DNA of 54,280 nt from Hydrurus foetidus (Eukaryota). The stretch spans positions 62,001 through 116,280 of the forward strand of contig UYFQ01000740.1 of NCBI GenBank assembly GCA_900617105.1, in the 5' to 3' direction. Below the pieces are notes generated by a model. The model was not told where the DNA came from. It worked only from the letters and a program-made list of their open reading frames with translations, and searched no databases. Shown here piece by piece: positions 18,401 to 54,280 of this stretch (its first letter is position 1; the number at the start of each line of letters is the position of its first letter). Made by a program: the position numbers and the translations under genes.

Positions 18401-19953
18401 ATGATATCGAAGCTGATAGCATGTGCTATCGTATCATTTCTGGTGTCTCGGTCTTCCGCCTTAAGTTCTTTTACGGCACAGTCAGCGACATCCATCAAGA
18501 AAAATCAACAAATGAGTAGAATTCTCCTCGGCAAGAACAAGAGACCCATGAAAGGCAGCAGCGCAGATTTCAAGAGTCAACCAATGGAGTGGCGGCAAGC
18601 TGTACGATTTTTAGATGAAACACTGTCGACTGGATTTATCCCAGACGTTCAAACCTGGTAAGTTCGAGAGAATCCAGCAATCAACAACACCTCCAAATCT
18701 ACATTCATGACACTTGACAATACAACGTACTTAGGACAACAGTTCTCCGCATATGTCAGAAAAGTCGGGAGGCAATTGCTGCGCTGTCAGTGTTCAATCG
18801 AATGAAAGTAAGCGGTGTCGAACCAGACCGCTTCGCATATCAAGTGGCAATATCCAGCTGCCTGCATCTAGAATGTACAACAGACTCTTGGCAACGAGCA
18901 GTTGCTCTATTCAAGGAATGTGACAAAATATTACCTCTTACCGGATCTGGCGGTATAATGGACGGCAAGCTCGCCATGTCAATCTTCTCTGTGGTGATCA
19001 GTGCGTGCGAGAGAGCAGCGCAGGGGAGAGTTGCTATCGACCTCTACGATCTAATGTCTCAACGTGTCAACCTCCCCCGACCAGACCTTGTGACTGTTTC
19101 CTCAATAGTTGCTGCGTGCGAAGTTGAGAGCGACTGGACAAAACTAGAGACCGTTCTCACTAGCTCGAAAGTTGTCCCCGATCTCATACTCTACCACCAA
19201 TTAATACGCATAGCTGGTAAAAGAAATGACCCTAAAGAGGCATTCAACCATTTGAGAGCGGCTGTGAAGCAGGGGCTGCGTCCCACGAGGGGAACGTACA
19301 GAGAGCTTGTGGAGGCTTGTAAACACAGCGCTGACCGTGTGCCGAATGGCGCGTACCTTCTGGAGCAAGCAAAGCTGCTTCTCAATAAAGCTTTCTCAAG
19401 TTGCATTGCAACAGATGAGGGACCCGTTGCTGATTTTCAATTGAATGGTGAAATATTATCAGCGAGTAATGGCCCCGGTGGGCCGTACGAACAGGCAACT
19501 CGAAAAATGTTGAACGTACTCTCTGTCACTACGGACTTCAGGCTACACGACCATTCAGCTCTTCCGGAATCAGGGCGACGCGTTCCCATGCAAGCAGCAC
19601 AGGAAATATTAGCAATGCATTGTGAGAAGCAAGCATTGGCAGCGCTGTTGGAGGACCAAGGTGATCATGAGAAGCCTGGCGACACCATACGCATCGCTGT
19701 CAGTCTCTGCATGTGCTCAGACTGCCACATGGTATTCAAGTATGCAAGTCAGGCGTACAGCAGGCGCATTGAATGTCATGACCCGAGTCGGAAGCATTGT
19801 TTCGAAAATGGTTCATGTAGCTGCCTTGATAACTGGCCGGGAAAAAATAGGATTTCGAGTATGGGTACTCCCGTGAATATCTTGACGTTCGCTCCGGATG
19901 ATGCGAAGAAGTCAAGTGATCTGTCACTCACGTCATCTCTGATTCACGATTGA
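18401..19953 (+). CDS. Pentatricopeptide-repeat protein with C-terminal DYW-type cytidine deaminase domain and N-terminal targeting leader (~491 aa)
   Basis: Exons 18401-18657 and 18735-19953. PPR-like units (PDVQTWTTVLRIC...FNRMKVSGVEPDRFAYQVAISSC; PDLVTVSSIVAAC; PDLILYHQLI; PTRGTYRELVEAC). DYW signature HCEK...LCMCSDCH...IECHD..RKHCFENGSCSCLDNW. Confidence 0.85.
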
Positions 19954-21458: not shown

Positions 21459-24400
21459 TTAGACAGACACAGGGGCTTTCATGGTGCCTTGGAATTTGTC
21501 CACGAGGATCTTCGCAAGCACTGGCAAGAGATCATCATCACTCATGGGGATGCCCTTGAATGTGGGCTCCATCATCAGTGATGCCTGTTCGCCAACCTTG
21601 CCTCCGATGAAGATGTTCACGCCTGGGACAGCCTTCATTGTTCCTTCTTCATTAGCCTTTCTGGCTGGTGCGCCCATGAGACCGATGTCGGCCACTTGGA
21701 CTTGTCCGCAACTGTGAGTCAGATAATAAATTTTCTGATTGGCGAGAGTATCGTAGGGTCAAAGGGAAAACAAAAATGTTAGTGAATTCTAAGTGTACCT
21801 GTTTGGGCAGCCAGTCATGTGGATTCTGATCGGGTGAGGTACGTGAACCATGTCCTCTAGCTTGCGTGTGATGTGATCTATGGCTAGCTTGGTCTCAACC
21901 ATGGCGAGAGGGCAGAATTGGGATCCAGTGCAAGACACCACGTGTCCTACGATGTGGCCGGGGTTCACAGTGAGCCTGCTGCCTTCCTTTGTGAAGATTG
22001 GCTCCTTGAGGAATTCGGGGATTTTTTCGTTGGGGATGTTGGGGAAGAGAACGTTCTGCTCTACTGTCAGGCGGATCTCAGAACCGGAGTATTTCTCAGC
22101 GAGGTCAGCGATCTCCAGGCACTCATCAGCACTGAGACGGCCGACAGGCACGTGTACGCCCACGTATGAGAGTCCTTCCTGTTTCTGTGGGTGGACACCG
22201 TTAACGTCTCTGTGGCCGTGCTCCCACTCACCCTTGTGCTTCTGGGGTGCCTGGAAGACGTACTCAGGTACGCCTCTGATGGTCGCCATCTCTGTTGCCA
22301 CCATGGCGCTGAACACGTCTAGGCCCTTGGTCTCGATGAGCCACATGAGACGGGTCTTCTGTCTGTCTCCTCTGAAGCCTTCATCTCTGAATATGCGGAG
22401 GATGGATTTGCAGAGGTCGAATGCGTCACTGGCGGGGATCCATGCGTTCATTGGGATAGCCTCAGCCGCTCTCTTGATGGAGATGTAGCCGCCTAGCACT
22501 ACATTGAATCCCACTTCTCCAGTGGTCTCATGCGGGCATGCTTGAAGACCAATGTCGTTAATGTTGGTGTGTGAGAAGTCATCTCTTGTGCCTGAGATGG
22601 CGATGTTAAATTTGCGGGGCATGTTGGCGTACTCGGGGTTGCCCTGTCCGTTGTTAGAGTACCAGCTGTCGATTTGCTTAGCGAGAGCTCTCGTGTCGAA
22701 AATTTCGTGTTCATCAATACCTGGGGTTTGGATCGGATTGAGTTGAGTAAACAGCGGAGTCGCTATCATCTTATCGCAGATTAGGGAAATTCGTCAATGT
22801 TGAAATGCAGTACCTGCGATGGGAGAGCCGACCATGTTTCTAAGATTGTCCAGACCACTCATGATTGAGGTCATGCCTCGTGCCTGGAGTCCCTTGAGGA
22901 TATCAGCGGCATCCTCGAGAGGAGGAGAGCGAAGCTGAATGTTCATGCGGCAAGTGATGTCAACAACGCCGATCTCTGGACCGTAGGGGCGAACGCATTC
23001 GGAGAAATATCTGTTGACAGAACAAAAGTTGGAGACAAGATGACAGTGTCAAGCTTTATGTTGTGTAGGGGGGACCACATCATGTAATAGCGTTGAAAGA
23101 CTGCTTCACTTGTTAGGAGTAATGATAAGAAGCATGTGCAGTACCTCATGTCGGATGAGCGGATGATGCCATTTGGAAGGCGGAGGCGCATCATGAAGCG
23201 TCCTGGCGTTGCCTTCTTTCTGTGGAACATTCCTGCGTACTTCACGCGGATGTCCATGTCGTCGCTGCCGATTTCCTCCCTACAGTGGGTTGAGTAAAGC
23301 ACGTGAGGTGTCGGCAATGATTGCATACGACAGTGTTCTCCAAGACTACTTCGACGAAAGAGAGTTACGAAGTAAGGGGGAGCACACACCAGTTGGTTTT
23401 TCCTTCTCTGATGGCGGCAGCGAACTCGTGAACATCGGTCCACAGCTGTGTGGGGTCCTTCTTCTGCTTCATCTTCTCAATGTTGTTGCCGACCTTCGCT
23501 CTCTCGAGCGTCTCTGGACTCAGCCACTCGTTAGCGGTTTTCATGTTCATGGTAGTGCGGGTGACCTTCGTGGAGGAGGGGATGAAGCCACCTCTGATGT
23601 TCATCATCTTATTGGGAACGGCACCAGTCGCAGGAACTGGAGCAGCAGCAGGACTGCTGCCTAGAAGAGATCCATATGCCGCTGAGTATCCCATGGCCAC
23701 GCAACCGGCACCTCCCACAATGTTGCCGAGTGTGACTGGGAGAAGATTCTTCATAAGAAAGTCTGCAGCAGTGATAGGGGCCCCGCGCATGATGCCCAGT
23801 GGGATTAAAAACATATTGGCGATGGAGTGGTCTAGACCCAGGGCGATGAAGGCTGAAATGGGGAACCAGATTGCTACCATCTTGCTGATAAGTGACGTGC
23901 ATCCTGATGCCATGTAGACAGCCATGCACACCAACCAATTGCACAGCACGCCTCTAATGAAGAGTGTCTTGAAAGGGTAAGACACCTTCATGTTGGCAGT
24001 GAGCACCGCTGCAGGTCCATCACCAAGAGTTGCTCCGTTGAAAGCCAACCAAGCCATTAACAAAGATCCCACAAAGTTGCCTCCGTAAGAGAAAAACCAG
24101 TTCTTCAGAAGGTCTTTTATTTCAGCTTTCTTCTCGATGACAGCGGCAGTCACAAGCGCCGTGTTACCGGTGAATAATTCACCGCCACCGACGAGGGTCA
24201 TCATCAAACCTAGTGATCAATCGCAATTGCAGATCAGATGATGTTTCAGGTGAATCAACACGTAAGCTTGTAGGTATTTACCAAAAGGAAGGCCGAATGC
24301 TCCTGAGATAATCTTCTGTAGCCCAGGATTTGTCTGGGCGAGTCCTGGACAGGCACCACCGACAGTGAGAACGAGGAAAGCCCCTGAGTAAGACACAGAA

Positions 24401-24828
24401 GTTTCAAACGAAGTTATATCTCTGATCGATTACAGATGTTTCTCGTCAGTTTGCTGGATTTACCGAAGGCTATGTGACAGCCGCTCAGAATTCCGAGGAT
24501 GAATGTTTTCACAGGAGATAGTCCAGCTTTTAAGGCCCCGAGTTCAACGACATTTGCATACATTGATTTCGGCGCTCTTAGCTCAGGAATGTCGCTTGCT
24601 GCGGCAAGTTTGGTCTGGCCGCCTCTGACTTTTAAACCACGGTGATCTAGTCCTATCGACGATTTCGATGGCTGGACATAGCCACGACACGAAACGACTG
24701 CCAGAACGGCTAAGACCGTCACGGCATTGAAATTTCTCTGAGAATTGAATGGGGCAACGATCGCATTAGTTCGTGGGACCACTGGTAGTAGAAACAGAAG
24801 CACGCATCATTCGTGGGGAACTTACCAT
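21459..24828 (-). CDS. NAR1-NIR: Fusion gene: plastid-targeted formate/nitrite transporter (NAR1/FNT family) + ferredoxin-nitrite reductase, ~901 aa
   Basis: Exons 24828-24826 (ATG only), 24737-24464, 24383-24282, 24209-23390, 23279-23145, 23010-22814, 22720-21799, 21711-21459 sum to 2706 nt (902 codons). FNT motifs GLPFGL, GGELFTGN, YGGNFVG, GVLCNWLVC, LGLDHSIANMF, VTLGNIVGG. NiR motifs FMMRLRLPNG, DITCRMNIQLR, NMPRKFNIAI, NDIG, RQKTRLMWL, CTGSQFC and TGCPNSCGQ (siroheme/4Fe-4S Cys). The junction lies inside exon 4 with no stop. Confidence 0.92.
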
Positions 24829-25345
24829 CGCTTACGGGCTCCTTTTTCAATTGTGTTAAGTTGCCACCTTGATTCCACAAATTCCAGCGATGGCTTGGTT
24901 GCGCTACTGTACGGAATGCGATGATGCAACACAAGTTTGTGAGAGTACGTGAAGGGGACTACGCCAGTACAGTACTGATTTGGAACCGACTGGCAACTGA
25001 ACAGAGTCGAAAGAATTCGTGCCATCTTCGAATCGGACACAACATGGTTTTGCATTTGCATAAAAATTTGGAAGAACAGAATGCAGATTTTTATCCGGGA
25101 ATGCGAAGAACATGCTGACATTGTCGTGACAGAATGTCTGATGTCCGAATGGATGAGGTCCCAGCTCACGCTCACGCAAATGGTATGTTGCTGTTTTGTC
25201 AAGAGCAGCTCGATTAGCACCGACAGTGACCACATACAGCAACATCAGCAGTGCCCCGGAGCCACAGCATTAAAGCCCTACTAATCTATTAAGTGCACAG
25301 ATTGCACTCATTTAAGGAGAACATCAACCGATCGCCGCTTCTGTC
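24829..25345. promoter_or_regulatory. Putative bidirectional promoter shared by the NAR1-NiR fusion and nitrate reductase
   Basis: 517 bp between divergent start codons (24828 on -, 25346 on +) of two genes in the same pathway. No specific motif identified. Confidence 0.65.
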
Positions 25346-28300
25346 ATGGCTCCCGCTGCTGAACTAGGTCCTTTAATTGGGGCGTCGTTATTCGCAATCA
25401 TCGTCGCTGTCACAGCCAATCGTAACATCACCAAGAAACCCTTAACTGAAGGGAAGGCAGAGGAATCATCTGTCGAAGTCAAAGATGAATTTGAGGGGCA
25501 GTACCAACCAGGACAGCCAATGCCTAACTACACACCTGACGAAATAACGAAGTACTACTTGAATGGCATGATCGACGATGAAACCTTTCAAGAGTCTGCT
25601 ACTGTGATTGATGGAAGAGATGCTGATACTCCAGACGAGTGGATTCCTAGACACAAAGAACTCGTGAGACTCACGGGCAGGCATCCATTCAACTGTGAAG
25701 CTCCACTGAAAGCTCTCCATGAGAAGGGATTTATCACACCTACATCTCTCCACTACGTGCGAAATCACGGTGCTTGCCCAAATATCGCATGGGAGAACCA
25801 TGTCATTGATATTGGAGGCCTTGCTCCTAAACCAATTCAACTGAAAATGAGAGACATAATGGCTCTCCCAACGCACTCACTGCCAGTAACCCTCGTGTGC
25901 TGCGGTAATAGACGTAAAGAACAAAACATGATTAAGCAGACGATTGGATTCAATTGGGGCGCTGCTGGTGTTTCTACTGGTGTGTGGACAGGAGCTCGTC
26001 TCATCGATATTTTGAAACTGGCTGGAATAGAGGGCATCGACAACTTTGCGGAGGGACATCACATCAGATTTGCATCAGAGAGTGAGCGAGGAGGTGACAA
26101 ACTGCCTGGAGGAGTCTATGGAACCAGCATATCCCTTGAGAAAGCGGTAAGTAAGATCTACCTTCAAGTGTCGATCATCTTCGAGGGTTTCTGCCGCGCA
26201 AGTTTTCCTCTTCTAACTCTGAAATGTTTTCATCGAACAGCTGGACAGAACACAAGATGTCATCGTGGCTTACATGTACAACGGCAAACTGCTGACACCA
26301 GACCACGGATTTCCTGTGAGAGTAATTATTCCTGGCTACGTCGGAGGCAGAATGATCAAGTGGATGACAAACATTGACTTGATCGGCACCATCTGCCAAG
26401 ACTACTACCACTTCTTCGACAACAGGTACTGCTCATACCCCTTCTTGTATCCTCCTACTCATCTCAAATCAGCACCACGCTGTGACTGATGACTGTGATC
26501 ATGCATACGCACTACTGCAGAGTCATGCCTCCACACGTGGACGCAGAATTGGCGAAGTCTGAGAATTGGTGGTTCAAACCTGAATACATCTGCAACGATC
26601 TCTCCATCAACTCTGCTATTGCGAAACCAGATCACGACGAAGTGCTGCAAGTGACACCAGAGGGGACATACACATGCGGAGGATATTGCTACACTGGCGG
26701 TGGACGAAGAGTGACTCGCATGGAGGTATCCCTCAACAGTGGAGCCCTCTGGCACCTCGCGACAATCAAGATTACTGAGAGGCCATCACGGTCTGGCAAA
26801 TACTGGTGCTGGATCTTCTGGGAGTGCACTTTCACGCATGCTCAGCTAGCTGAAGCCTCTGAGATTGTGCTGAGAGGCTGGGACGAGGGACACCAAACAC
26901 AGGTGCGAAGCAGTTCAGTCCACAACAACTCCACTCCACCCCAAGCACCATGACCTCATCCCTCTATCTAACTTTTCACATTCTATGAACAACAATGCCA
27001 GCCTGACAAGCCCACATGGAACTTGATGGGGATGCTTAACAACCCCTGGTTCAGGGTGAAGATCGCCAAGACAGTGGACCCAGTGACGGGCAACGTCTCC
27101 CTCCAATTCGAACACCCCACACTCGCAGGTATTACCACTCATACTACGACAATATCAACTGTGAAAGTCGAGGTCAATCACTCGGACTCGTTGCCAACAA
27201 TAGGAAGCACACGAACCAGACCTCATGTGATCTCCATTTTTGACTCCTTTCACAGGCAATCAGAACGGCGGATGGATGCCTAAGATTAGAGAACATCCTG
27301 CACTCACCACACCGGGCGTGTACATGGACCCTGCCACAGAGACTGGCACCCTCATCCCCTCGTTGGTACCCAAGACAGTCGAGGAACCAGCTGTTGTGAA
27401 AGCTGTGTTCGATCCTTCGAAACCACATTTCAGCATGGAGGAGGTGGCACAGCACACTACTCACGACTCCGCCTGGTTCGTGGTGAACGACAAGGTGTAC
27501 GATGCGACTCCTTTCTTGAAGGCCCACCCCGGAGGAGCAGAGTCGATTCTGATCAGCGCTGGTATCGACACCACTGAAGAGTTCGACGCGATCCACTCCA
27601 AGAAGGCATGGAAACTGCTGGACGACTACTACATCGGACAGCTGAGGCCAGCCGTCGCCGAGGGTGATATCTCTCCCACGACAGTAACCGCTATTCCAGA
27701 GGAAGTGCATCGCGTCAACGCCAACGGAGACTTGCTCGCCCTGGACCCCAAGAAAAAAATCGCCTTTACTCTCTCCGAAAGAATAGTGCTCAGTCCCGAC
27801 AGTCTCCTCCTCCGCTTCGCCCTCCAGACACCCAAACACATCTTGGGCCTACCTGTTGGCCAGCACATGCTCTTCTCCGCCAAGGTGGATGGCAGTATGG
27901 TGATGAGGGCTTATACCCCCACTTCAAGCGACCATGACGTGGGTCACTTCGACTTGGTCATTAAGGTGTACTATGCAGGCGTGAGTTCTCAGTACCCTGA
28001 GGGCGGCAAGATGTCTCAGTACTTGGGGAAGATGGTCGTAGGAGACAGTATTAACGTGAAGGGCCCTCTAGGACACGTCACGTACGAGGGCAAAGGCGTA
28101 CTCACCCTTGGACAGGAGACGCATAAGGTGAAGAAGTTCTCGATGCTTTGCGCCGGAACAGGCATCACGCCTGTGTACCAAGTGTTGTGCGCAGTACTCA
28201 GAGATCCCAAAGACACCACGGAAATGTCTCTGATCTTCGCTAACAGAACCGAAGCCGACATTCTCCTTAAAGACGAGCTGGACATGCTTGCAAGAGGGCA

Positions 28301-28562
28301 TCCCAACAGACTGAAAGTGCACTACATCCTATCCAAGCCAGCAGACAGTAAGAAGTGGTTAGCCGGAGACGGTGGGAACTGTCCCTCAACCCGCTCTGTC
28401 GGACACCTCAACAAGGAACTAGTCGTTTCTAAGTGCGCACTTGGGGGCATGGACTCAGGAGCATTCGCACTGCTGTGCGGACCTGACGGTTTCCTCTCCC
28501 AGGCATGCGACCCCGCCCTCGAGGCACACGGATACCCCAAGGAGATGTGCGTGTACTTCTAA
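25346..28562 (+). CDS. NIA: Assimilatory NAD(P)H nitrate reductase (Moco + dimerisation + cytochrome b5 + FAD/NAD domains), ~933 aa
   Basis: Exons 25346-26146, 26241-26425, 26521-26902, 27002-27128, 27256-28562 sum to 2802 nt. Motifs RLTGRHPFNCE, HYVRNHG, TLVCCGNRRKEQN, DHGFPVR, WNLMGMLNN, cyt b5 HPGG and FDAIHS, RAYTP, AGTGITP, CGP. Confidence 0.97.
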
Positions 28563-29456: not shown

Positions 29457-38269
<8,813 letters not shown>

Positions 38270-47772: not shown

Positions 47773-48138
47773 AATAAAAAACTCCGAAGTAAATCTGCTG
47801 TATGTTGTATCTACAGAATACAGTATATTAAGTATTTTGTATTCTGATAGGCATGCGGCATGCTCTATGAATTTTTGAATTGGGGGATTAACCGGATGGT
47901 GGTTCCACCTTTATATAACAAATCCGGTATTTCACTGGCTTTTTTTGGTCACGGAGGACGTGTTCTCCTGCTTTTTGGGGCTCTTTTCAGGTTTTTTTTG
48001 CTTGCGAACTCAACATTCTTTTTTCATTTTGTGGCGTGATTGATTTCAGTTCGACGGCTTTGGTACAGTACACACTAGACAAGACAACACGTGTCTTCAA
48101 CATTCCAGAGATCAACTGTTCCAGTCATTGTCATTGTG

Positions 48139-51100
48139 ATGGATCCCATTGCTGTCCATGATCTGGTCGGTGGAAATGTCGTTCGTCAGCCTAGGGATCA
48201 CAGTTGTTTGTATCATTCGTTGTGTTTTTTCTTGAATCGGATGTATGACACGCTGGCATATACTCCACTCTTCTTGCGGACTGAGATCAATTGTTTCTTA
48301 ATGAACAATCGTTCTACAATTCTTGTTCTCGGCCCTGGTTCTGCTTATACTGTTGATGAGTGTATAGCACTCGAGCACTATACTGTCGAACGATACATTT
48401 CGGTTATGTCTGAGTTGACTTCATGGGGTGGTGCTATTGAGCTCGCTTGTTTCGTCCATATGTTTCCTGTGGACATCTATATTTTCAAACCTTTCGATGG
48501 TAGTTGTAGAATGAAATGGGTGACAACGTTCGTTACTACTTTGGCTGGGCGTAATTGTGACCATGACTTTCGTCTTCTATACACTGGCAACAGTCATTAC
48601 GATTGTGTTATCGATGCGGTTTTTGACCCATCATATCTGTCGACACTCTTAGATCCCGAATATTTAATCAATCTTAGTGGTGGTGATGCATTTGCTAACA
48701 CATCTTTTGGTGCAAAGAGAAGGAAAGTTCGGTATCAGTCTATCATCGAAACTCGCCGTAGTTGTCAGCAGTCGTCACACTGTGAACCACTTTCAGCTAA
48801 GCCTAAGGAATCTTTTCGTCGCCGAGCTATACATGCGACCAGACGTCTTCTTGAGTCTGCGCGGCCCTTTAAATATTACTCTGGGTCTTCCCGTTTACGT
48901 GGCTACGCTCCTTCTTCTACGACAAATATACGTGTGTCTGATAGCGCAGCTGATGGTAATGCTTATATCAATTCGTATGATCTATTAACGAAGTACTTAG
49001 TATGTGCAATATGTGGCTATGAGGGAAGTCGTGTTGGTTGTGTATCTGTCACGGAAGTCGGTGATCTGCTTGAAATGTCTGGAATTGCTTCTAAGTTCCA
49101 TGATATCGTCTGTTCTGATCGTGTTAAAACTCGGTTTGATGCTATTTTCAATATGGAGCTTAATACGTGCTTTAAGGATGGTCTTATTCGTGATATTGAT
49201 AGTATATGTCGCGGATGTTACCGACAATTACTTCGGAACAAAGCAAAGATTAAAGTGTCTTCGCGTATGGAATTTTGTGTCGATTCTGACCTAGTGGACT
49301 CTTCTGATGAGGAAAGTGGTGATCCTGATTGTAGCGGCCCTATTTTTCCAAAGATGAGTTTATTTCTTGGATTATTTTGTGGGAGAATTCCTGATGAGCT
49401 TATGAATCTTACAGCAGTGGAAGAGAGCATGATCAATATTTACAGTGCCATTACTAATATAAGTCTAGCTGGTGGCAAACACTTCAAAGTGCGTGGTGCT
49501 ACTTGTTATACGATTATTAATGACTTGACTAGTGTCGCTAAAGAGCTCCCACGTATGCCGTCTATAGATTGTACAGCTGTGCTACGACATAATAGTACCA
49601 AATTATGCAAAGATTATACTTATCGTCCTAATCGCGTGTATCGTGCATTAAACTGGTTAAAACTTAATAACCATCTCTACGAGGATATTGTATTGAAGTG
49701 GTCGTCAGAAATAATGGATTGGGCTAATAATTCTGAATGTATCGATATACCTTTTATTGAGATATCTGATGATGAAGAACATGAAATCGATGAAAGTGTA
49801 AATGAACCTATGATTCCTGGCGAGACATCTTCAGCTAATCCAGGTACTGTTTTAATTGATTATTATTGTCGTTTGTGTTTAATTTCTTGACCATTGATGT
49901 TTGTGTCTTTGTTTTTTCAGTTTCCAGTGGACGTGAGCATGATTTGCTCTTGGAGGCCCCAAATACTCTAGTGTCACTATTGGAGGATATACGCAATGCT
50001 TTGGTTGAACCTAGTAACAAGTCCGTACATCGGACGTCCGTCCATGAATTCGTGTGTCAATATAAAAATCCTGAGTACTACTTACCGAGATGCTTCCCCA
50101 CTATATTTCCCTACGGTCGTGGTTGCCCTAGTGATGAGAATTCTCATTTTATTACTATGGCAAACTATATAAAACATATGCTTTGCCTTGGTGGTGGTCC
50201 GGATCCCCGGCGATTCCAGAAAAATGCTAAATTTATCTTCACCATGTATTCAATGGAAATGAGAAGAAAAATAGGTGGGGTTGCATACCTTGCTCAACGT
50301 AAAGAGTATGATGAACAATGCATAGATGCAACACCTAATATTAAAGATATAAACGAGTTGTTGTCCTATCTCGATGTATCCAATACCGGTTGTGATGTTC
50401 GTGATGGTAATGATGTTGTACATGACAACTTGAATGTTGAGCCAACCAGTAATTGTGAGAGTACGAATCGTGTAAGTGAGATGGAGAAGCTTATTAAAAG
50501 ATTGATACCTTATTCTAAATCATTGCAAGGTTCTACTTCACAAATTGCGTATGAAAGAGGGAAATTAATGGCTATGATACCTTCCCCTATCATCTGCAAT
50601 TATGGTTCCTGGCGTTTATTTTTCACCACTGCTCCAGCTGATCTTTATGAAAGTCGATTTTACGATGTTGTGGCGAGTCCTATCACTAATAGTTCCATTG
50701 ATTCATGGGCGATACGTGATGAAAAGGTATGTTTTTTTGTTCAAGCACTACGTGTACTGTTTATAACTTTACTTTTTTTAACTATGTCAGACTCGTAATC
50801 TTGCGGCTGCTGATAGATTAAATCTTTTAAGGAATCATCCCGCTACGATGGCTCGGCTATACGATTGCAAACAGAGTTGTTTATGGCAAAATGTTATTCT
50901 TGGCAAATCTCGTCCTTTTGGTCTCATTACAGATTTTTGGCGTCGAGTTGAGGTTGGTGTTATCAGGCACTATTATGTTTTGTGCATTCTAATGTTATAG
51001 TACATTGCTCGGGGTACTTACAAACCATCTTTCCAATAATTAATTCTCTGTTTTTTCATTTTCATTATAATTTTTTTCATTTTCATTTTTATTATCATTA

Positions 51101-54100
51101 CATTTTCATTTTCATTTTTAGTTTCATTTTCATTATAATTATCATTTTTTTTTTTTTTTCATTTTCATTTTCATTTTCATTATCCCCCCTATTCCATTTT
51201 CATTTTCATTTCCATTTCATTTTCATTTTCATTCCATTCCATTCCATTCCATTTCATTTTTCCATTCCATTCCATTCCATTCCATTCCATTCCATTTCAT
51301 TTCATTCCATTCCATTATTTCATTCCATTCCATTCCATTTTCATTCATTTTCATTTCATTCATCCTCTTTTATCCATTTCAAGCTGTGGTCCATTCATGT
51401 CCATAGTCTTATCTGTATATCGAATTCCGACGGAATTGATAATACATGTGTTAATAGTGAGGTTGCATCTGATACAGACAAAGTTAAAGCGTATGTTCAG
51501 AGCGTTGTATCTGCGAACTTTGTAGGGGTTCCTTCAGGTGTATCAACATGTCGTACGTTATTTAGTGACCTTGTAGTAGATGAGTCCGGTTATGAATGGT
51601 GTCCTGAAAAAGACCACTTTGCCGATTCTGACCATCCATGTCGAGCTAATTTCGATTCATCTTGGAACTATGAGCGGTCTTGTGATGGCGAGTTCCGTGA
51701 TATGAGGGTTCAATCTCAATATCGGTCTTTGCAAATCGCCAATCAGTTTCACAGATGTTGTTTCACATGTTTTAAGTACTGCCGAAGACATGACAGAGTT
51801 TGTCGGTTTGGTTTTCCATGGACTTCTAAAGAGTGTTTATTCGGTCCTATGATTGTGAAAGATCGCGATAAAAAGAGTCGTGTGAGGGTTTCTGTGCTAC
51901 CCCAGAGGAATAATGCATATCTAAATGGGACGTGTTTTAACCCTTTGATTGCCATTGCTCACGGGGGTAATCATGATTTGCAATATATTGCAAATACCGT
52001 TGGTGCTGCCGAATATGTTGCGTCGTATGCCTCTAAATTCGAAGAACCCGATAAAAAGGTTATGACCAATATATTCAATAAGAAAATGGCTTATCTTACT
52101 AATAATGCGACAAGTATTACGGATCGTGATCGACTATATTCTGTTGGGTGTGCACTTTTAGGTAGTAGCCCTGTCGGATCAGTGCAGGCTTGTTACAGTT
52201 TGCTTGGGCTTAAGTTTGTACATTCATCGCGAAAAGTCCTAAACGTGAATTCTTTGCATCGTAAGTACGTGATTCTTTAATTAATTGTATGTTTCTACAT
52301 ATTTGTTAGTCCTAATATTCTGTGTTACTTGTTCGTTACTATAGGTGATTCAGTTATTCGGAGCTTAAAAACTCGTCCCGAATGTATCCGTAAACTAGCG
52401 GATACCGACTCTGCCATAGAGTCTGGACCTAATTCTAATTTGGGGCGAAGACGTGCGTATGAGATATTAGCTTGTCAACAAAGGATAAACTACAATGGCA
52501 TTTGTAACGTGACATACTACTCATTACTGACATCTTATACCATCAGTATTGACAGAACTAACAACAAGTCGAATGTGAAGGGTCCTCCACTATTAGTGCT
52601 TAACAAATACGGAATTATTGTCAGTAGTAGTGGAACAAATAAATTTATCGTCGATGGAGCGGTCTATACACGATTACGTAAAGATACTGTGGTTAACCTT
52701 TGTCCATATGTCCCTATTAATCATTGTGATGAGGTGTCATGTTATTCTAATATATTAATGCACCTGCCTTGGCCATTGGCTGGTGAGTTGTGTCTAATAC
52801 CTGTTGGTTTGTCATCTATACAATACTATGCTATTGTTCTTGATCTAAACTTATTTCCTGAGTACGTCAAATGTACCCTTGAAAAATTTCAACATTCTGA
52901 TGTGATTAGAAAAAATGTGGGTACTATTTGCAGTAGTACCAATTTAGGACAATGTGATGAAAATGATTCTGACGTTGAGGAAATTACTACAATGAATAAT
53001 TCTATGGCGCATAGTGATGAAACTGGTATCAATATTGTAGATACTCAACTTACGAATAATAATGGTGTACTTACAGACATTAGTACAGTGTCAAAAACTT
53101 ATTTATTGAAATATGTACATACACAACAAAAAATATTTATGGAGAATATGTCCATTCGGAATAGAATTACTGTGAATATTGAAGGAGATTCGGTTTTTAA
53201 TATGGTCCGAAATACTATTCCCGTCGAAAACTATAATATTCGGTTACAGTCACTATTAGATAATGTCGGGCTATTAACTCATAAACAACTCGAAGCATAC
53301 AATATAGCTGTCGGATATATTAGTGGTAAAAATAATAACCCAATGAAAATGTTCGTGTCTGGTGAAGGTGGGACGGGGAAATCGTTTCTTATTTCATTAA
53401 TTATGGAATTTACAAATATTTTTCATGGGAAACAGAAAGGTATATATGGCGCTGCGGTTGCCGTAGCACCTACTGGTTCGGCGGCTAATGTTATACGAGG
53501 CTTTACGTGGCAATCTGTGTACGGGAAAGGATTCAATTCATCGAATGTCAGGAGTCCTGAGTTAATGTCACCTCCTTGTGCTCAAGCTGTTGGGGCGAAA
53601 TTATGTGGTGTTAAGTTAGTAATCATCGATGAAATATCTATGATTGATCTCGAAACATTGTATGAAATAAGTTTGAGACATACTAAGTCTATGGGTACTA
53701 CTGTCACCGATGATCGTGAGAGGTCGAATATGGAATGTATGTCTTTTGGTGGGACTCACGTACTATTTACTGGAGATTTCTACCAGTTGAAACCTGTATT
53801 TGGACAACCCATCTATGCGGACCGTGTAGACAACATTTATTGCGAAAAAGGACGCGATATATGGCTCAGTCTGAATGAATACGTGGAGTTGACTGAAAAT
53901 ACAAGGTATAGAAATGATGCAACTCCTCACATGAATCAATTTCTTAGGGGAGCACGCATTGGTAAAATTGACATGAATTTATTACATATCGTTAATGAAC
54001 GTCTGATGGCAAGTGAGGAAGCAGCTAAACGTCTTGCCGGACCTAATGCTGTATGGATTGCACACTTTAATGATGATGTGGATCGCCTCAATAAAGATGA

Positions 54101-54280
54101 TTTTGAGGAAAAGAGGGCCAGAGGTGTGAGATGCTTTCGTATTTACGCAAGACACACTCTTGTGAAAACACCAGGAATAGCGCCTACTAATGATATGGTG
54201 GAAAAACTGTGCAAAATTTCTAATCCCAAAGGGCTTCCGCGTTTTATTGATCTAGCTATTGGTACTAGAGTCAGCTGTAC
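48139..54280 (+). mobile_element. Helitron-superfamily rolling-circle transposon (Helentron/Helitron2-like) RepHel gene with N-terminal OTU protease, HUH Rep and PIF1 helicase; intron-containing, truncated by the window end
   Basis: OTU motifs PRDHSCLYHS, SWGGAIEL and GNSHYD. Helitron-typical RVYRALNWLKLNNHLY and CFPTIFPYGRG. Rep motifs FFTTAP, RVE...HVH and EYVASYASK. PIF1 motifs SGEGGTGKS, APTGSAA, IIDEISM, FGG..VLFTGDFYQL. Introns ~49844-49920, 50727-50790, 50953-~51376, 52261-52344. The last exon appears open to the end of the window. Markedly more AT-rich than host genes. Confidence 0.92.
51050..51365. repeat. (CATTT/CATTC)n low-complexity satellite within a Helitron intron
   Basis: Continuous ttcatt/cattc units. 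Confidence 0.9.

What the first reader, a model, noticed from the sequence alone, without database searches (positions are those of the whole stretch)
23542..23660. Linker looks like a ubiquitin-type RGG cleavage site exposing a second plastid transit peptide (plastid polyprotein)
Seen: the linker is GSSPAAAPVPATGAVPNKMMN-IRGG|FIPSSTKVTRTTMNM-KTANEW (IRGG at 23598-23587, F at 23586). The segment after GG starts with Phe, is Ser/Thr/Lys/Arg-rich with no acidic residues and ends T-M-N-M. Established: this matches ochrophyte transit peptides, where a +1 aromatic residue (ASA-FAP motif) is needed for stromal import. LRGG is the C-terminal ubiquitin motif cut by deubiquitinases, and the ERAD-derived SELMA import system of red-lineage complex plastids includes ubiquitylation and deubiquitylation enzymes. 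Inference: the precursor enters with one signal peptide, is cut after RGG (possibly in the periplastid compartment), and NiR is then imported independently through its unmasked F-initiated transit peptide. This would be a DUB-like-processed polyprotein route.
Basis: partly seen in the sequence, partly recalled or inferred. Interest (0 to 1): 0.88.

Follow-up and report, generated by a model that had tools for sequence, protein, structure and literature searches.

The report
Ubiquitin-tail cut site in algal polyprotein
In this alga and in golden algae such as Dinobryon, the nitrite channel and nitrite reductase are encoded as one protein whose linker keeps a ubiquitin-tail-like RGG followed by a phenylalanine-led stretch resembling a plastid import signal, so the precursor is likely cut there and the enzyme would then enter the plastid on its own.

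Summary
The linker lies in one exon of a spliced, transcribed 901-residue NAR1(FNT)-ferredoxin nitrite reductase (NiR) fusion. The fused NiRs form one clade that includes Dinobryon and Epipyxis. No ubiquitin fold and no hidden signal peptide precede the motif. Best reading (0.5): a GG-specific, deubiquitinase-like protease cuts before the plastid envelope and frees an F-led transit peptide. Against it: 7 of 33 linkers have S, M or A after GG and a short spacer; 5 of 15 N-terminal presequences also carry RGG; composition does not separate the stretch after GG from the stretch before it; and an internal RGG in Toxoplasma PUBL is not cut. Cleavage, compartment and enzyme are untested.

The parts
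21459..24828 (-). NAR1(FNT)-ferredoxin nitrite reductase fusion gene, 8 coding exons, 901 aa
   Evidence: seven GT-AG introns from RNA joints; open frame after splicing; Pfam
24681..24828 (-). signal peptide, residues 1-20 (ATG alone in exon 1; intron 24738-24825)
   Evidence: joint 24737-24826; highest 8-residue hydropathy 3.5; cleavage site inferred by eye
24590..24680 (-). first transit-peptide-like segment, starting Y-x-x-P and holding a second RGG at 24626-24618
   Evidence: end position approximate
23668..24575 (-). FNT/NAR1 nitrite channel domain (about residues 56-307, interrupted by introns 2 and 3)
   Evidence: PF01226; best solved relative Chlamydomonas-type LCIA 9v2a, E 3.3e-49
23611..23667 (-). 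variable Ala/Pro/Ser-rich spacer before the motif
   Evidence: FNT end to GG is 11-67 residues among 33 linkers; pLDDT under 50 in the Dinobryon orthologue model
23587..23610 (-). conserved motif, consensus K-[VL]-[LM]-x-[IL]-R-G-G, the proposed cut site lying after the second Gly
   Evidence: R[GA]G in 33 of 33; P7 hydrophobic 27, P6 L/M 21, P4 hydrophobic 28, P8 K 19 of 33
23542..23586 (-). internal F-x-P-led transit-peptide-like segment (residues 335-349) ending in a possible stromal peptidase site
   Evidence: F or W first in 26 of 33; acid-poor; peptidase-like motif in 12 of 26 against 6.7 shuffled
21459..23541 (-). ferredoxin-dependent nitrite reductase, mature part
   Evidence: PF01077, PF03460; NiR tree
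25316..28562 (+). nitrate reductase gene, head to head with the fusion gene (limits are those of the outer open frames)
   Evidence: PF00174, PF00173, PF00970, PF00175; RNA reads on the opposite strand from about 25200-25280

Best explanation
The gene encodes one precursor, signal peptide - transit peptide - nitrite channel - linker - nitrite reductase, that is likely cut after the conserved RGG by a GG-specific, deubiquitinase-like protease before the plastid envelope, which would expose the Phe-led second transit peptide and let NiR be imported into the stroma on its own. Shown: one spliced mRNA and frame, one fusion clade, near-invariant RGG, conserved F, an unstructured linker, no ubiquitin fold, no internal signal peptide. 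Inferred: that cleavage occurs, that it falls after GG, and that it happens outside the stroma. The periplastid compartment is favoured over the chloroplast-ER lumen only because it is the one of the two with a described deubiquitinase. The second segment would be removed in the stroma by the stromal processing peptidase. In lineages with S, M or A after GG the site would act differently, probably as the end of the spacer with release after import.
For: R[GA]G in 33 of 33 linkers, F or W next in 26 of 33; shuffle expectation 1.6 and 0.04. Anchored pairwise identity in 20 full-length linkers: RGG 97%, next residue 64%, P2'-P5' 14%, P6'-P15' 8.5%, P4-P8 22%, so selection acts on the motif and the F, not on the spacer. 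Upstream positions are hydrophobic at P7 (27 of 33), P6 (L/M 21) and P4 (28), the pattern of ubiquitin V70, L71 and L73 (recalled). The motif is tied to the fusion: 1 of 103 unfused NiR N-extensions and 1 of 108 unfused FNT C-tails hold RGG, and both lie within the fusion clade. F is not a general part of the motif: the 5 N-terminal RGGs are followed by Q, Q, Q, L and S, so the F belongs to the NiR side. After GG: P at +3 in 12 of 26, net charge 0 to +3, K within 20 residues in 20 of 26, acids 2 of 260, peptidase-like motif 12 of 26 against 6.7 (P 0.011); lengths 11-39, close to the 12-42 measured for diatom transit peptides (PMC3774753). A +1 F, Y, W or L is needed for import across the inner membranes (PMC3774753, PMC12136025). 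A ptDUP clade with predicted targeting signals exists in stramenopiles (10.1101/2025.03.31.646294). Ubiquitin-type proteases cut polyproteins at bare LXGG or (M/I/L)XGG sites in viruses (PMC7464072). The linker is unstructured in the Dinobryon model (residues 303-337, pLDDT under 50).
Against: 7 of 33 linkers have S (3), M (2) or A (2) after GG, with shorter spacers (median 13 against 23.5 residues, p 0.003). Three of them form one clade (99% SH-aLRT) and others fall elsewhere, so the F was lost more than once while RGG stayed. An unfused NiR in the clade (P0083) keeps RGG followed by M at the end of its own leader. 5 of 15 N-terminal presequences of the fusions, the window's included, hold RGG 4-10 residues before a peptidase-like site; a pre-stromal cut there would remove the channel's own aromatic +1. 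Composition does not separate the post-GG from the pre-GG stretch (p 0.42), and the post-GG stretch scores slightly below true transit peptides (p 0.034). The basic residue at P5 of ubiquitin is kept in only 1 of 33. ptDUP is of the Ubp15/UBP12-13 type, and such enzymes need the ubiquitin fold for activity (recalled). The internal RGG of Toxoplasma PUBL is not processed and is dispensable (PMC5487736). The 33 linkers share one origin, and 7 are close kin of the window, so the counts are not independent events.
Confidence: 0.5

Rival explanations
1. The whole precursor is imported on its N-terminal signal and is cut only in the stroma, as Euglena polyproteins are. The motif is then a stromal processing site, cut either after GG or by the stromal processing peptidase two residues after the P6 Leu/Met, and the second segment is an internal peptidase guide.
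For: The channel's own presequence starts with Y-x-x-P, a stromal-type signal. Unfused diatom-type NAR1 presequences end in a similar L-x-M-S-G-G (MSGG in 27 of 44, some xxGG in 38 of 44), which fits the diatom peptidase rule of Leu at -2 and M, A or S after the cut (PMC3774753). In the 7 non-aromatic linkers GG is followed by S, M or A and almost at once by the mature NiR start. Euglena plastid polyproteins, hetero-fusions included, are processed after import (PMC6242988).
Against: It does not explain why F is kept in 25 of 33 right after GG while the next residues drift, nor the F-x-P pattern, nor a second peptidase-like site further on. An invariant R-G-G is no part of the published peptidase consensus.
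Confidence: 0.27
2. RGG is not cut. It is a binding or recognition element of ochrophyte targeting sequences, and the F-led segment acts internally, for example to restart translocation of the large C-terminal domain. NiR either stays tethered to the channel or is released only at the downstream peptidase site.
For: RGG occurs in N-terminal presequences without F (5 of 15 fusions; 5 of 51 and 2 of 58 unfused FNT extensions). Toxoplasma PUBL's internal RGG is not cut. Two reverse-order NiR-FNT fusions outside the clade have no RGG at the junction, so a channel-enzyme tether can exist without it. Both termini of FNT channels lie on one side of the membrane (recalled), so a stromal tether is possible in topology.
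Against: A tether needs no invariant G-G at one point of a linker of 31-98 residues. The only departure is RAG (2 of 33), a change typical of GG/AG-specific cysteine protease sites (recalled). The known role of the +1 F is at a free N-terminus.
Confidence: 0.17
3. The two halves are separated at the RNA or translation level (internal promoter, alternative splicing, ribosomal skipping), or the motif is a hidden signal-peptidase site left from the ancestral NiR leader.
For: The post-GG segment sits where the ancestral NiR transit peptide would be. Two predicted proteins of relatives end at or just after RGG (P0188, P0191).
Against: No joint and no listed start or end pile-up in the linker in two raw RNA runs. 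Highest 8-residue hydropathy before GG is -0.7 to 2.3 (32 of 33 at or below 1.7) against 2.2-4.2 in 14 N-terminal signal peptides, and the distance from the last helix varies from 11 to 67 residues. No 2A-like motif. P0188 is the sister of a fused RGG-F sequence and is more simply an exon fragment.
Confidence: 0.06

Closest known systems
Euglena and Prorocentrum plastid polyproteins (RbcS, LHC, EF-Ts; hetero-fusions such as SOD-dicarboxylate carrier) (PMC6242988, passages)
   Same: One mRNA and one N-terminal targeting sequence deliver more than one plastid protein, joined by a short conserved linker; a soluble enzyme can be fused to a membrane carrier.
   Different: Those are cut upon or after import, and no RGG-F or second transit peptide is described in the passages read. 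They occur in three-membrane plastids; this one is in a four-membrane red-lineage plastid.
Ubiquitin-fusion precursors of algae such as ubiquitin-NiSOD (PMC6332867, passages); their release by deubiquitinases is recalled
   Same: A GG end is placed just before a partner whose free N-terminus matters.
   Different: Here there is no ubiquitin fold, only a 7-8 residue tail-like motif after a membrane channel, and the precursor enters the ER and plastid route.
Viral polyprotein processing by ubiquitin-type proteases: coronavirus PLpro (LXGG) and adenain ((M/I/L)XGG-X) (PMC7464072, passages)
   Same: A bare hydrophobic-x-G-G motif serves as a polyprotein cut site without a ubiquitin domain.
   Different: Those are viral enzymes on viral substrates; no cellular plastid-route enzyme with that activity has been identified here.
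ASA-FAP bipartite targeting and SELMA with ptDUP in diatoms (PMC3774753, PMC12136025, PMC3101018, 10.1101/2025.03.31.646294; passages)
   Same: +1 aromatic residue, acid-poor S/T-rich segment, peptidase-like end; a periplastid deubiquitinase exists in stramenopiles.
   Different: The F here is internal and follows RGG, not a signal peptide. ptDUP is proposed to remove ubiquitin from cargo, not to cut linear precursors.
Toxoplasma PUBL with an internal RGG (PMC5487736, passages)
   Same: An internal RGG in a protein bound for the periphery of a four-membrane plastid, first expected to be a deubiquitinase site.
   Different: It was tested and found uncut and dispensable; it precedes a ubiquitin-like domain, not an F-led transit peptide.
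Tandem mitochondrial precursors cut by MPP at internal presequence-like sites, such as yeast Arg5,6 (recalled, no call)
   Same: An internal targeting-like sequence between two proteins.
   Different: Cut after full import by the matrix peptidase, with no GG motif; this is the model for the first rival.

Membership tests
Plastid polyproteins (Euglena/dinoflagellate type) | One spliced mRNA and one reading frame encode two or more mature proteins | tested here: met
Plastid polyproteins (Euglena/dinoflagellate type) | A single N-terminal signal peptide for the whole precursor | tested here: met
   hydropathy 3.5 at the N-terminus; no comparable stretch before GG
Plastid polyproteins (Euglena/dinoflagellate type) | Conserved linker motif between the units | tested here: met
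   R[GA]G in 33 of 33
Plastid polyproteins (Euglena/dinoflagellate type) | Proteolytic release of the units, upon or after import | not testable with these tools
   needs blots or N-terminomics
Ubiquitin/UBL-fusion precursors | A ubiquitin fold directly before the GG | tested here: not met
   Pfam finds only FNT in exon 4; 11-67 variable residues before GG; coil with pLDDT under 50
Ubiquitin/UBL-fusion precursors | LXGG-type tail | tested here: met
   P4 hydrophobic 28 of 33, R 33, G-G 31 of 33; LXGG as the ubiquitin, ISG15 and NEDD8 end
Ubiquitin/UBL-fusion precursors | Cleavage after GG by a deubiquitinase | not testable with these tools
   no genome is held, so the organism's own deubiquitinases were not searched
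ASA-FAP type transit peptide (segment after GG) | F, Y, W or L at +1 | tested here: met
   met in the window and in 26 of 33; not met in 7 of 33
ASA-FAP type transit peptide (segment after GG) | Acid-poor, S/T-rich, net positive, 12-42 residues | tested here: inconclusive
   met in absolute terms, but the pre-GG spacer scores alike, p 0.42
ASA-FAP type transit peptide (segment after GG) | Preceded directly by a signal peptide | tested here: not met
ASA-FAP type transit peptide (segment after GG) | Stromal peptidase motif at its end | tested here: inconclusive
   12 of 26 against 6.7 shuffled, P 0.011, with a pattern of my own making
ASA-FAP type transit peptide (segment after GG) | Directs a reporter to the stroma | not testable with these tools
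   needs GFP fusions
FNT/NAR1 channel and ferredoxin nitrite reductase | PF01226; PF01077 plus PF03460, grouping with algal Fd-NiR | tested here: met

The most novel reading that the evidence does not exclude
Chrysophytes use a bare ubiquitin-tail mimic as a compartment-specific cut site: a deubiquitinase-like protease of the periplastid compartment or chloroplast-ER lumen splits a channel-enzyme polyprotein in transit and unmasks a second transit peptide, so one signal peptide delivers two proteins to two places in a four-membrane plastid. The same hydrophobic-x-GG motif in N-terminal presequences would be a wider, undescribed processing step of complex-plastid import.
Probability: 0.4. Interest if true: 0.9.

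Novelty: new variant of a known kind. Interest (0 to 1): 0.77.

Why it matters
Plastid polyproteins are described as cut upon or after import. A precursor cut on the way, with a hidden transit peptide switched on by a ubiquitin-type cut, would be a new import route for four-membrane plastids. It would give the periplastid deubiquitinase, whose substrates have been hard to show (PMC5487736), a natural linear substrate and a simple readout. It also bears on how polytopic membrane proteins travel through these membranes, and it offers a two-cargo targeting cassette for diatom or Nannochloropsis engineering. Even under the stromal-cut rival, a NAR1-NiR polyprotein conserved across a chrysophyte clade was not found in my searches, and natural F and non-F variants exist for comparison.

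Tried and rejected
No whole genome is held, so the proteome-wide scan for other internal RGG-F linkers and a search for this organism's deubiquitinases could not be run. In the window's six frames 35 RGG were found; only the linker's and one in a 40-codon frame fit the [LIVMF]-x-x-[LIVFTP]-RGG pattern. The metagenome locus scan gave 18 loci; none of the 13 matches that my script printed showed a fused linker. Two Atlas look-ups with linker pieces gave one hit at 0.75, under the tool's threshold, and none: no evidence either way. Four look-ups in the scan's earlier notes gave nothing on this feature. A composition score did not separate post-GG from pre-GG stretches. Rejected: hidden signal-peptidase site; intron or alternative joint in the window's linker; chance motif; ubiquitin domain remnant. 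Five adapter-ended reads stop at 23592 in one run, under the tool's threshold for a pile-up, and I give them no weight. No complex prediction was run. Paper searches for LRGG or RGG with plastid-targeting terms, for the fusion and for polyproteins in complex plastids listed no description of this motif or fusion; only 30 of 69 and 40 of 413 papers were listed, the library holds open-licence papers only, and I read no supplements, where such a motif could be shown.
Full report
Gene and observation. The finding lies in a minus-strand gene with eight coding exons from 24828 to 21459. RNA joints give seven GT-AG introns, and the spliced frame gives 901 residues: a signal peptide, a Y-x-x-P-led presequence, an FNT/NAR1 channel (PF01226), a linker, and a ferredoxin nitrite reductase (PF01077, PF03460). 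A nitrate reductase gene lies head to head on the plus strand. The linker is inside exon 4. Stranded raw reads of two runs of one sample cover it without a joint or a listed pile-up of starts or ends, and a spliced contig of a close relative runs from the channel through the linker to the NiR stop. Run X13 matches the DNA without a difference and may be its source.

Relatives. Of 48 longer proteins found with exon 4, 19 are FNT-then-NiR fusions and 2 are reverse-order NiR-then-FNT fusions. Two of the 19 carry species names, Dinobryon divergens and Epipyxis sp.. In NiR trees the forward fusions form one clade (FastTree 0.997 on 56 rows; SH-aLRT 99% on 37 of those 56 rows), apart from diatom, haptophyte and red-algal unfused NiRs. 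I infer a chrysophyte host and one fusion event. The clade also holds proteins without the channel: P0082 and P0083 have their own leaders, P0085 may have one, and P0084 and P0107 are fragments. The root of the clade is open, so fission is likely for P0082 and P0083 but not shown for P0085.

Conservation of the motif. I pooled 33 linkers: the window, the 19 full-length fusions and 13 fragments that span the junction (4, 9). Left out: P0355 (98% identical to the window), P0188 and P0191 (they end at or two residues after RGG and have no NiR part) and P0083 (no channel). Every linker has exactly one R[GA]G; 31 have RGG and 2 RAG; the next residue is F in 25, W in 1, S in 3, M in 2 and A in 2. 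Shuffling within each linker gives 1.6 and 0.04 of 33 for R[GA]G and R[GA]G[FW]. In the 20 full-length linkers, anchored pairwise identity is 97% over RGG, 64% at the next residue, 14% at P2'-P5', 8.5% at P6'-P15' and 22% at P4-P8. Upstream consensus is K-[VL]-[LM]-x-[IL]-R-G-G (P8 K 19, P7 hydrophobic 27, P6 L/M 21, P4 hydrophobic 28 of 33). This follows the hydrophobic pattern of the ubiquitin tail (recalled), except that a basic P5 is kept in only 1 of 33. The sequences share descent and 7 are close kin of the window, so these are counts of retention, not independent origins. Controls: RGG in 1 of 103 N-extensions of unfused NiRs, some of them short or partial, and in 1 of 108 C-tails of unfused FNTs; both exceptions belong to the fusion clade. 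In the more distant FNT set 7 of 139 C-tails hold RGG, 5 of them fusion-clade fragments. The two reverse-order fusions have no RGG in the junction stretch examined.

Is the segment after GG a transit peptide? For: aromatic first residue in 26 of 33; P at +3 in 12 of 26; 2 acidic residues in the first 260 positions; net charge 0 to +3; lengths 11-39; a peptidase-like motif in 12 of 26 against 6.7 shuffled (P 0.011, pattern of my own). These agree with the diatom data of PMC3774753 (passages): +1 F, Y, W or L, 12-42 residues, Leu at -2. Against: a composition score trained on 97 transit peptides of unfused NiR and NAR1 does not separate the post-GG from the pre-GG stretch (p 0.42) and puts it slightly below true transit peptides (p 0.034), though far above the NiR start. 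The strongest argument is therefore the F and the F-x-P, not composition. The F is not part of the RGG motif in general: the five N-terminal RGGs are followed by Q, Q, Q, L and S.

What cuts, and where? A signal peptidase is unlikely: no hydrophobic core precedes the motif and its distance from the last helix varies from 11 to 67 residues. No ubiquitin fold is present; in an AlphaFold model of the Dinobryon orthologue (17-sequence alignment, mean pLDDT 72.7) residues 303-337 are coil with pLDDT under 50. Near-invariant R-G-G with RAG as the only variant fits GG-specific cysteine proteases; PLpro and adenain cut polyproteins at bare LXGG and (M/I/L)XGG (PMC7464072, passages). A periplastid deubiquitinase, ptDUP, is listed in the diatom compartment (PMC3101018, passages), and its clade with predicted targeting signals includes stramenopiles, with chrysophytes not mentioned in the text (10.1101/2025.03.31.646294, passages). 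Since the +1 aromatic residue is what separates stromal from periplastid cargo (PMC12136025, passages), keeping it makes most sense if it becomes a free N-terminus outside the envelope. That is the best explanation, at 0.5. Which enzyme does it is less certain than that a cut occurs: ptDUP is of the Ubp15/UBP12-13 type, which needs the ubiquitin fold (recalled), so a Ulp- or NEDP1-like enzyme is as good a candidate (recalled, untested).

Results against. Seven linkers have S, M or A after GG and shorter spacers (median 13 against 23.5; p 0.003). Three form a clade and the others fall elsewhere in a weakly resolved tree, so the F was lost more than once while RGG stayed; there the cut would yield an almost mature NiR, which suits a stromal cut. 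Five of 15 N-terminal presequences of the fusions hold RGG shortly before a peptidase-like site, as do 5 of 51 and 2 of 58 unfused FNT extensions; a pre-stromal cut there would strip the channel's own aromatic signal. Diatom-type NAR1 presequences end in L-x-M-S-G-G (MSGG in 27 of 44), which fits the stromal peptidase rule and may be the same element. In Toxoplasma the internal RGG of PUBL was tested and is neither cut nor needed (PMC5487736, passages). These give the stromal-cut rival 0.27, the uncut rival 0.17 and RNA-level or signal-peptidase readings 0.06.

Comparison and novelty. It works like a plastid polyprotein (Euglena and Prorocentrum; PMC6242988, passages) and possibly like a ubiquitin-fusion precursor (PMC6332867, passages), but it is not a member of the ubiquitin fusions, because the fold is absent. 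The survey of eukaryotic nitrate assimilation does not mention NAR1 or formate/nitrite transporters in its main text (PMC6400420, passages). Ten searches of the open library listed no description of this fusion or motif; the one RGG hit with periplastid terms was a presequence printed in a table (PMC5635587, passages), and PMC11528492 and PMC5811012 (passages) add nothing. Subscription papers and supplements were not seen. Hempel 2010, Gruber 2007 and Lau 2015 are known to me only through these citing passages and recall. The scan's earlier notes held nothing on this feature.

Verdict. A real, conserved feature of a chrysophyte channel-enzyme fusion; a new variant of the plastid polyprotein kind, with a 0.4 chance of being a new in-transit processing route. 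Interest 0.77.

Noticed in passing
window 24618-24626 (-): A second RGG inside the N-terminal presequence, followed by Q and a peptidase-like site; present in 5 of 15 fusion presequences and in some unfused algal FNT leaders, and in the Phaeodactylum TPT4b presequence printed in PMC5635587.
   Followed up: partly
window 24970-25260: Short divergent intergenic stretch between the NAR1-NiR fusion and nitrate reductase, likely a shared promoter of a compact nitrate-assimilation cluster.
   Followed up: partly
window 24826-24828 (-): The start codon alone forms the coding part of exon 1; an 88-base intron follows directly.
   Followed up: yes
proteins P0022, P0024: Reverse-order NiR-FNT fusions whose NiR falls outside the chrysophyte clade: a second, probably independent fusion of the same two proteins, with no RGG in the junction stretch examined.
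   Followed up: partly
proteins P0188, P0191 and their cluster members: Predicted proteins that end at or two residues after RGG in all 5 members of each cluster; consistent with an intron at the GG/F border in some relatives, but the DNA was not seen.
   Followed up: partly
protein P0083: Unfused NiR inside the fusion clade with a signal-peptide-like stretch and a leader ending in RGG followed by M.
   Followed up: partly
window 48079-54278 (+): Helitron-like element: DUF6570, PIF1 helicase, weak Helitron_like_N, and a weak OTU-like protease match below the curated cut-off.
   Followed up: no
window 18718-19950 (+): PPR protein with a DYW deaminase domain, the type known from organellar RNA editing factors.
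   Followed up: no
window 34799-35567: Tandem array that reads as an 8-residue repeat in open frames on both strands.
   Followed up: no
window 25316-25430 (+): The nitrate reductase frame begins with a hydrophobic stretch before the molybdopterin domain, possibly a membrane anchor.
   Followed up: no
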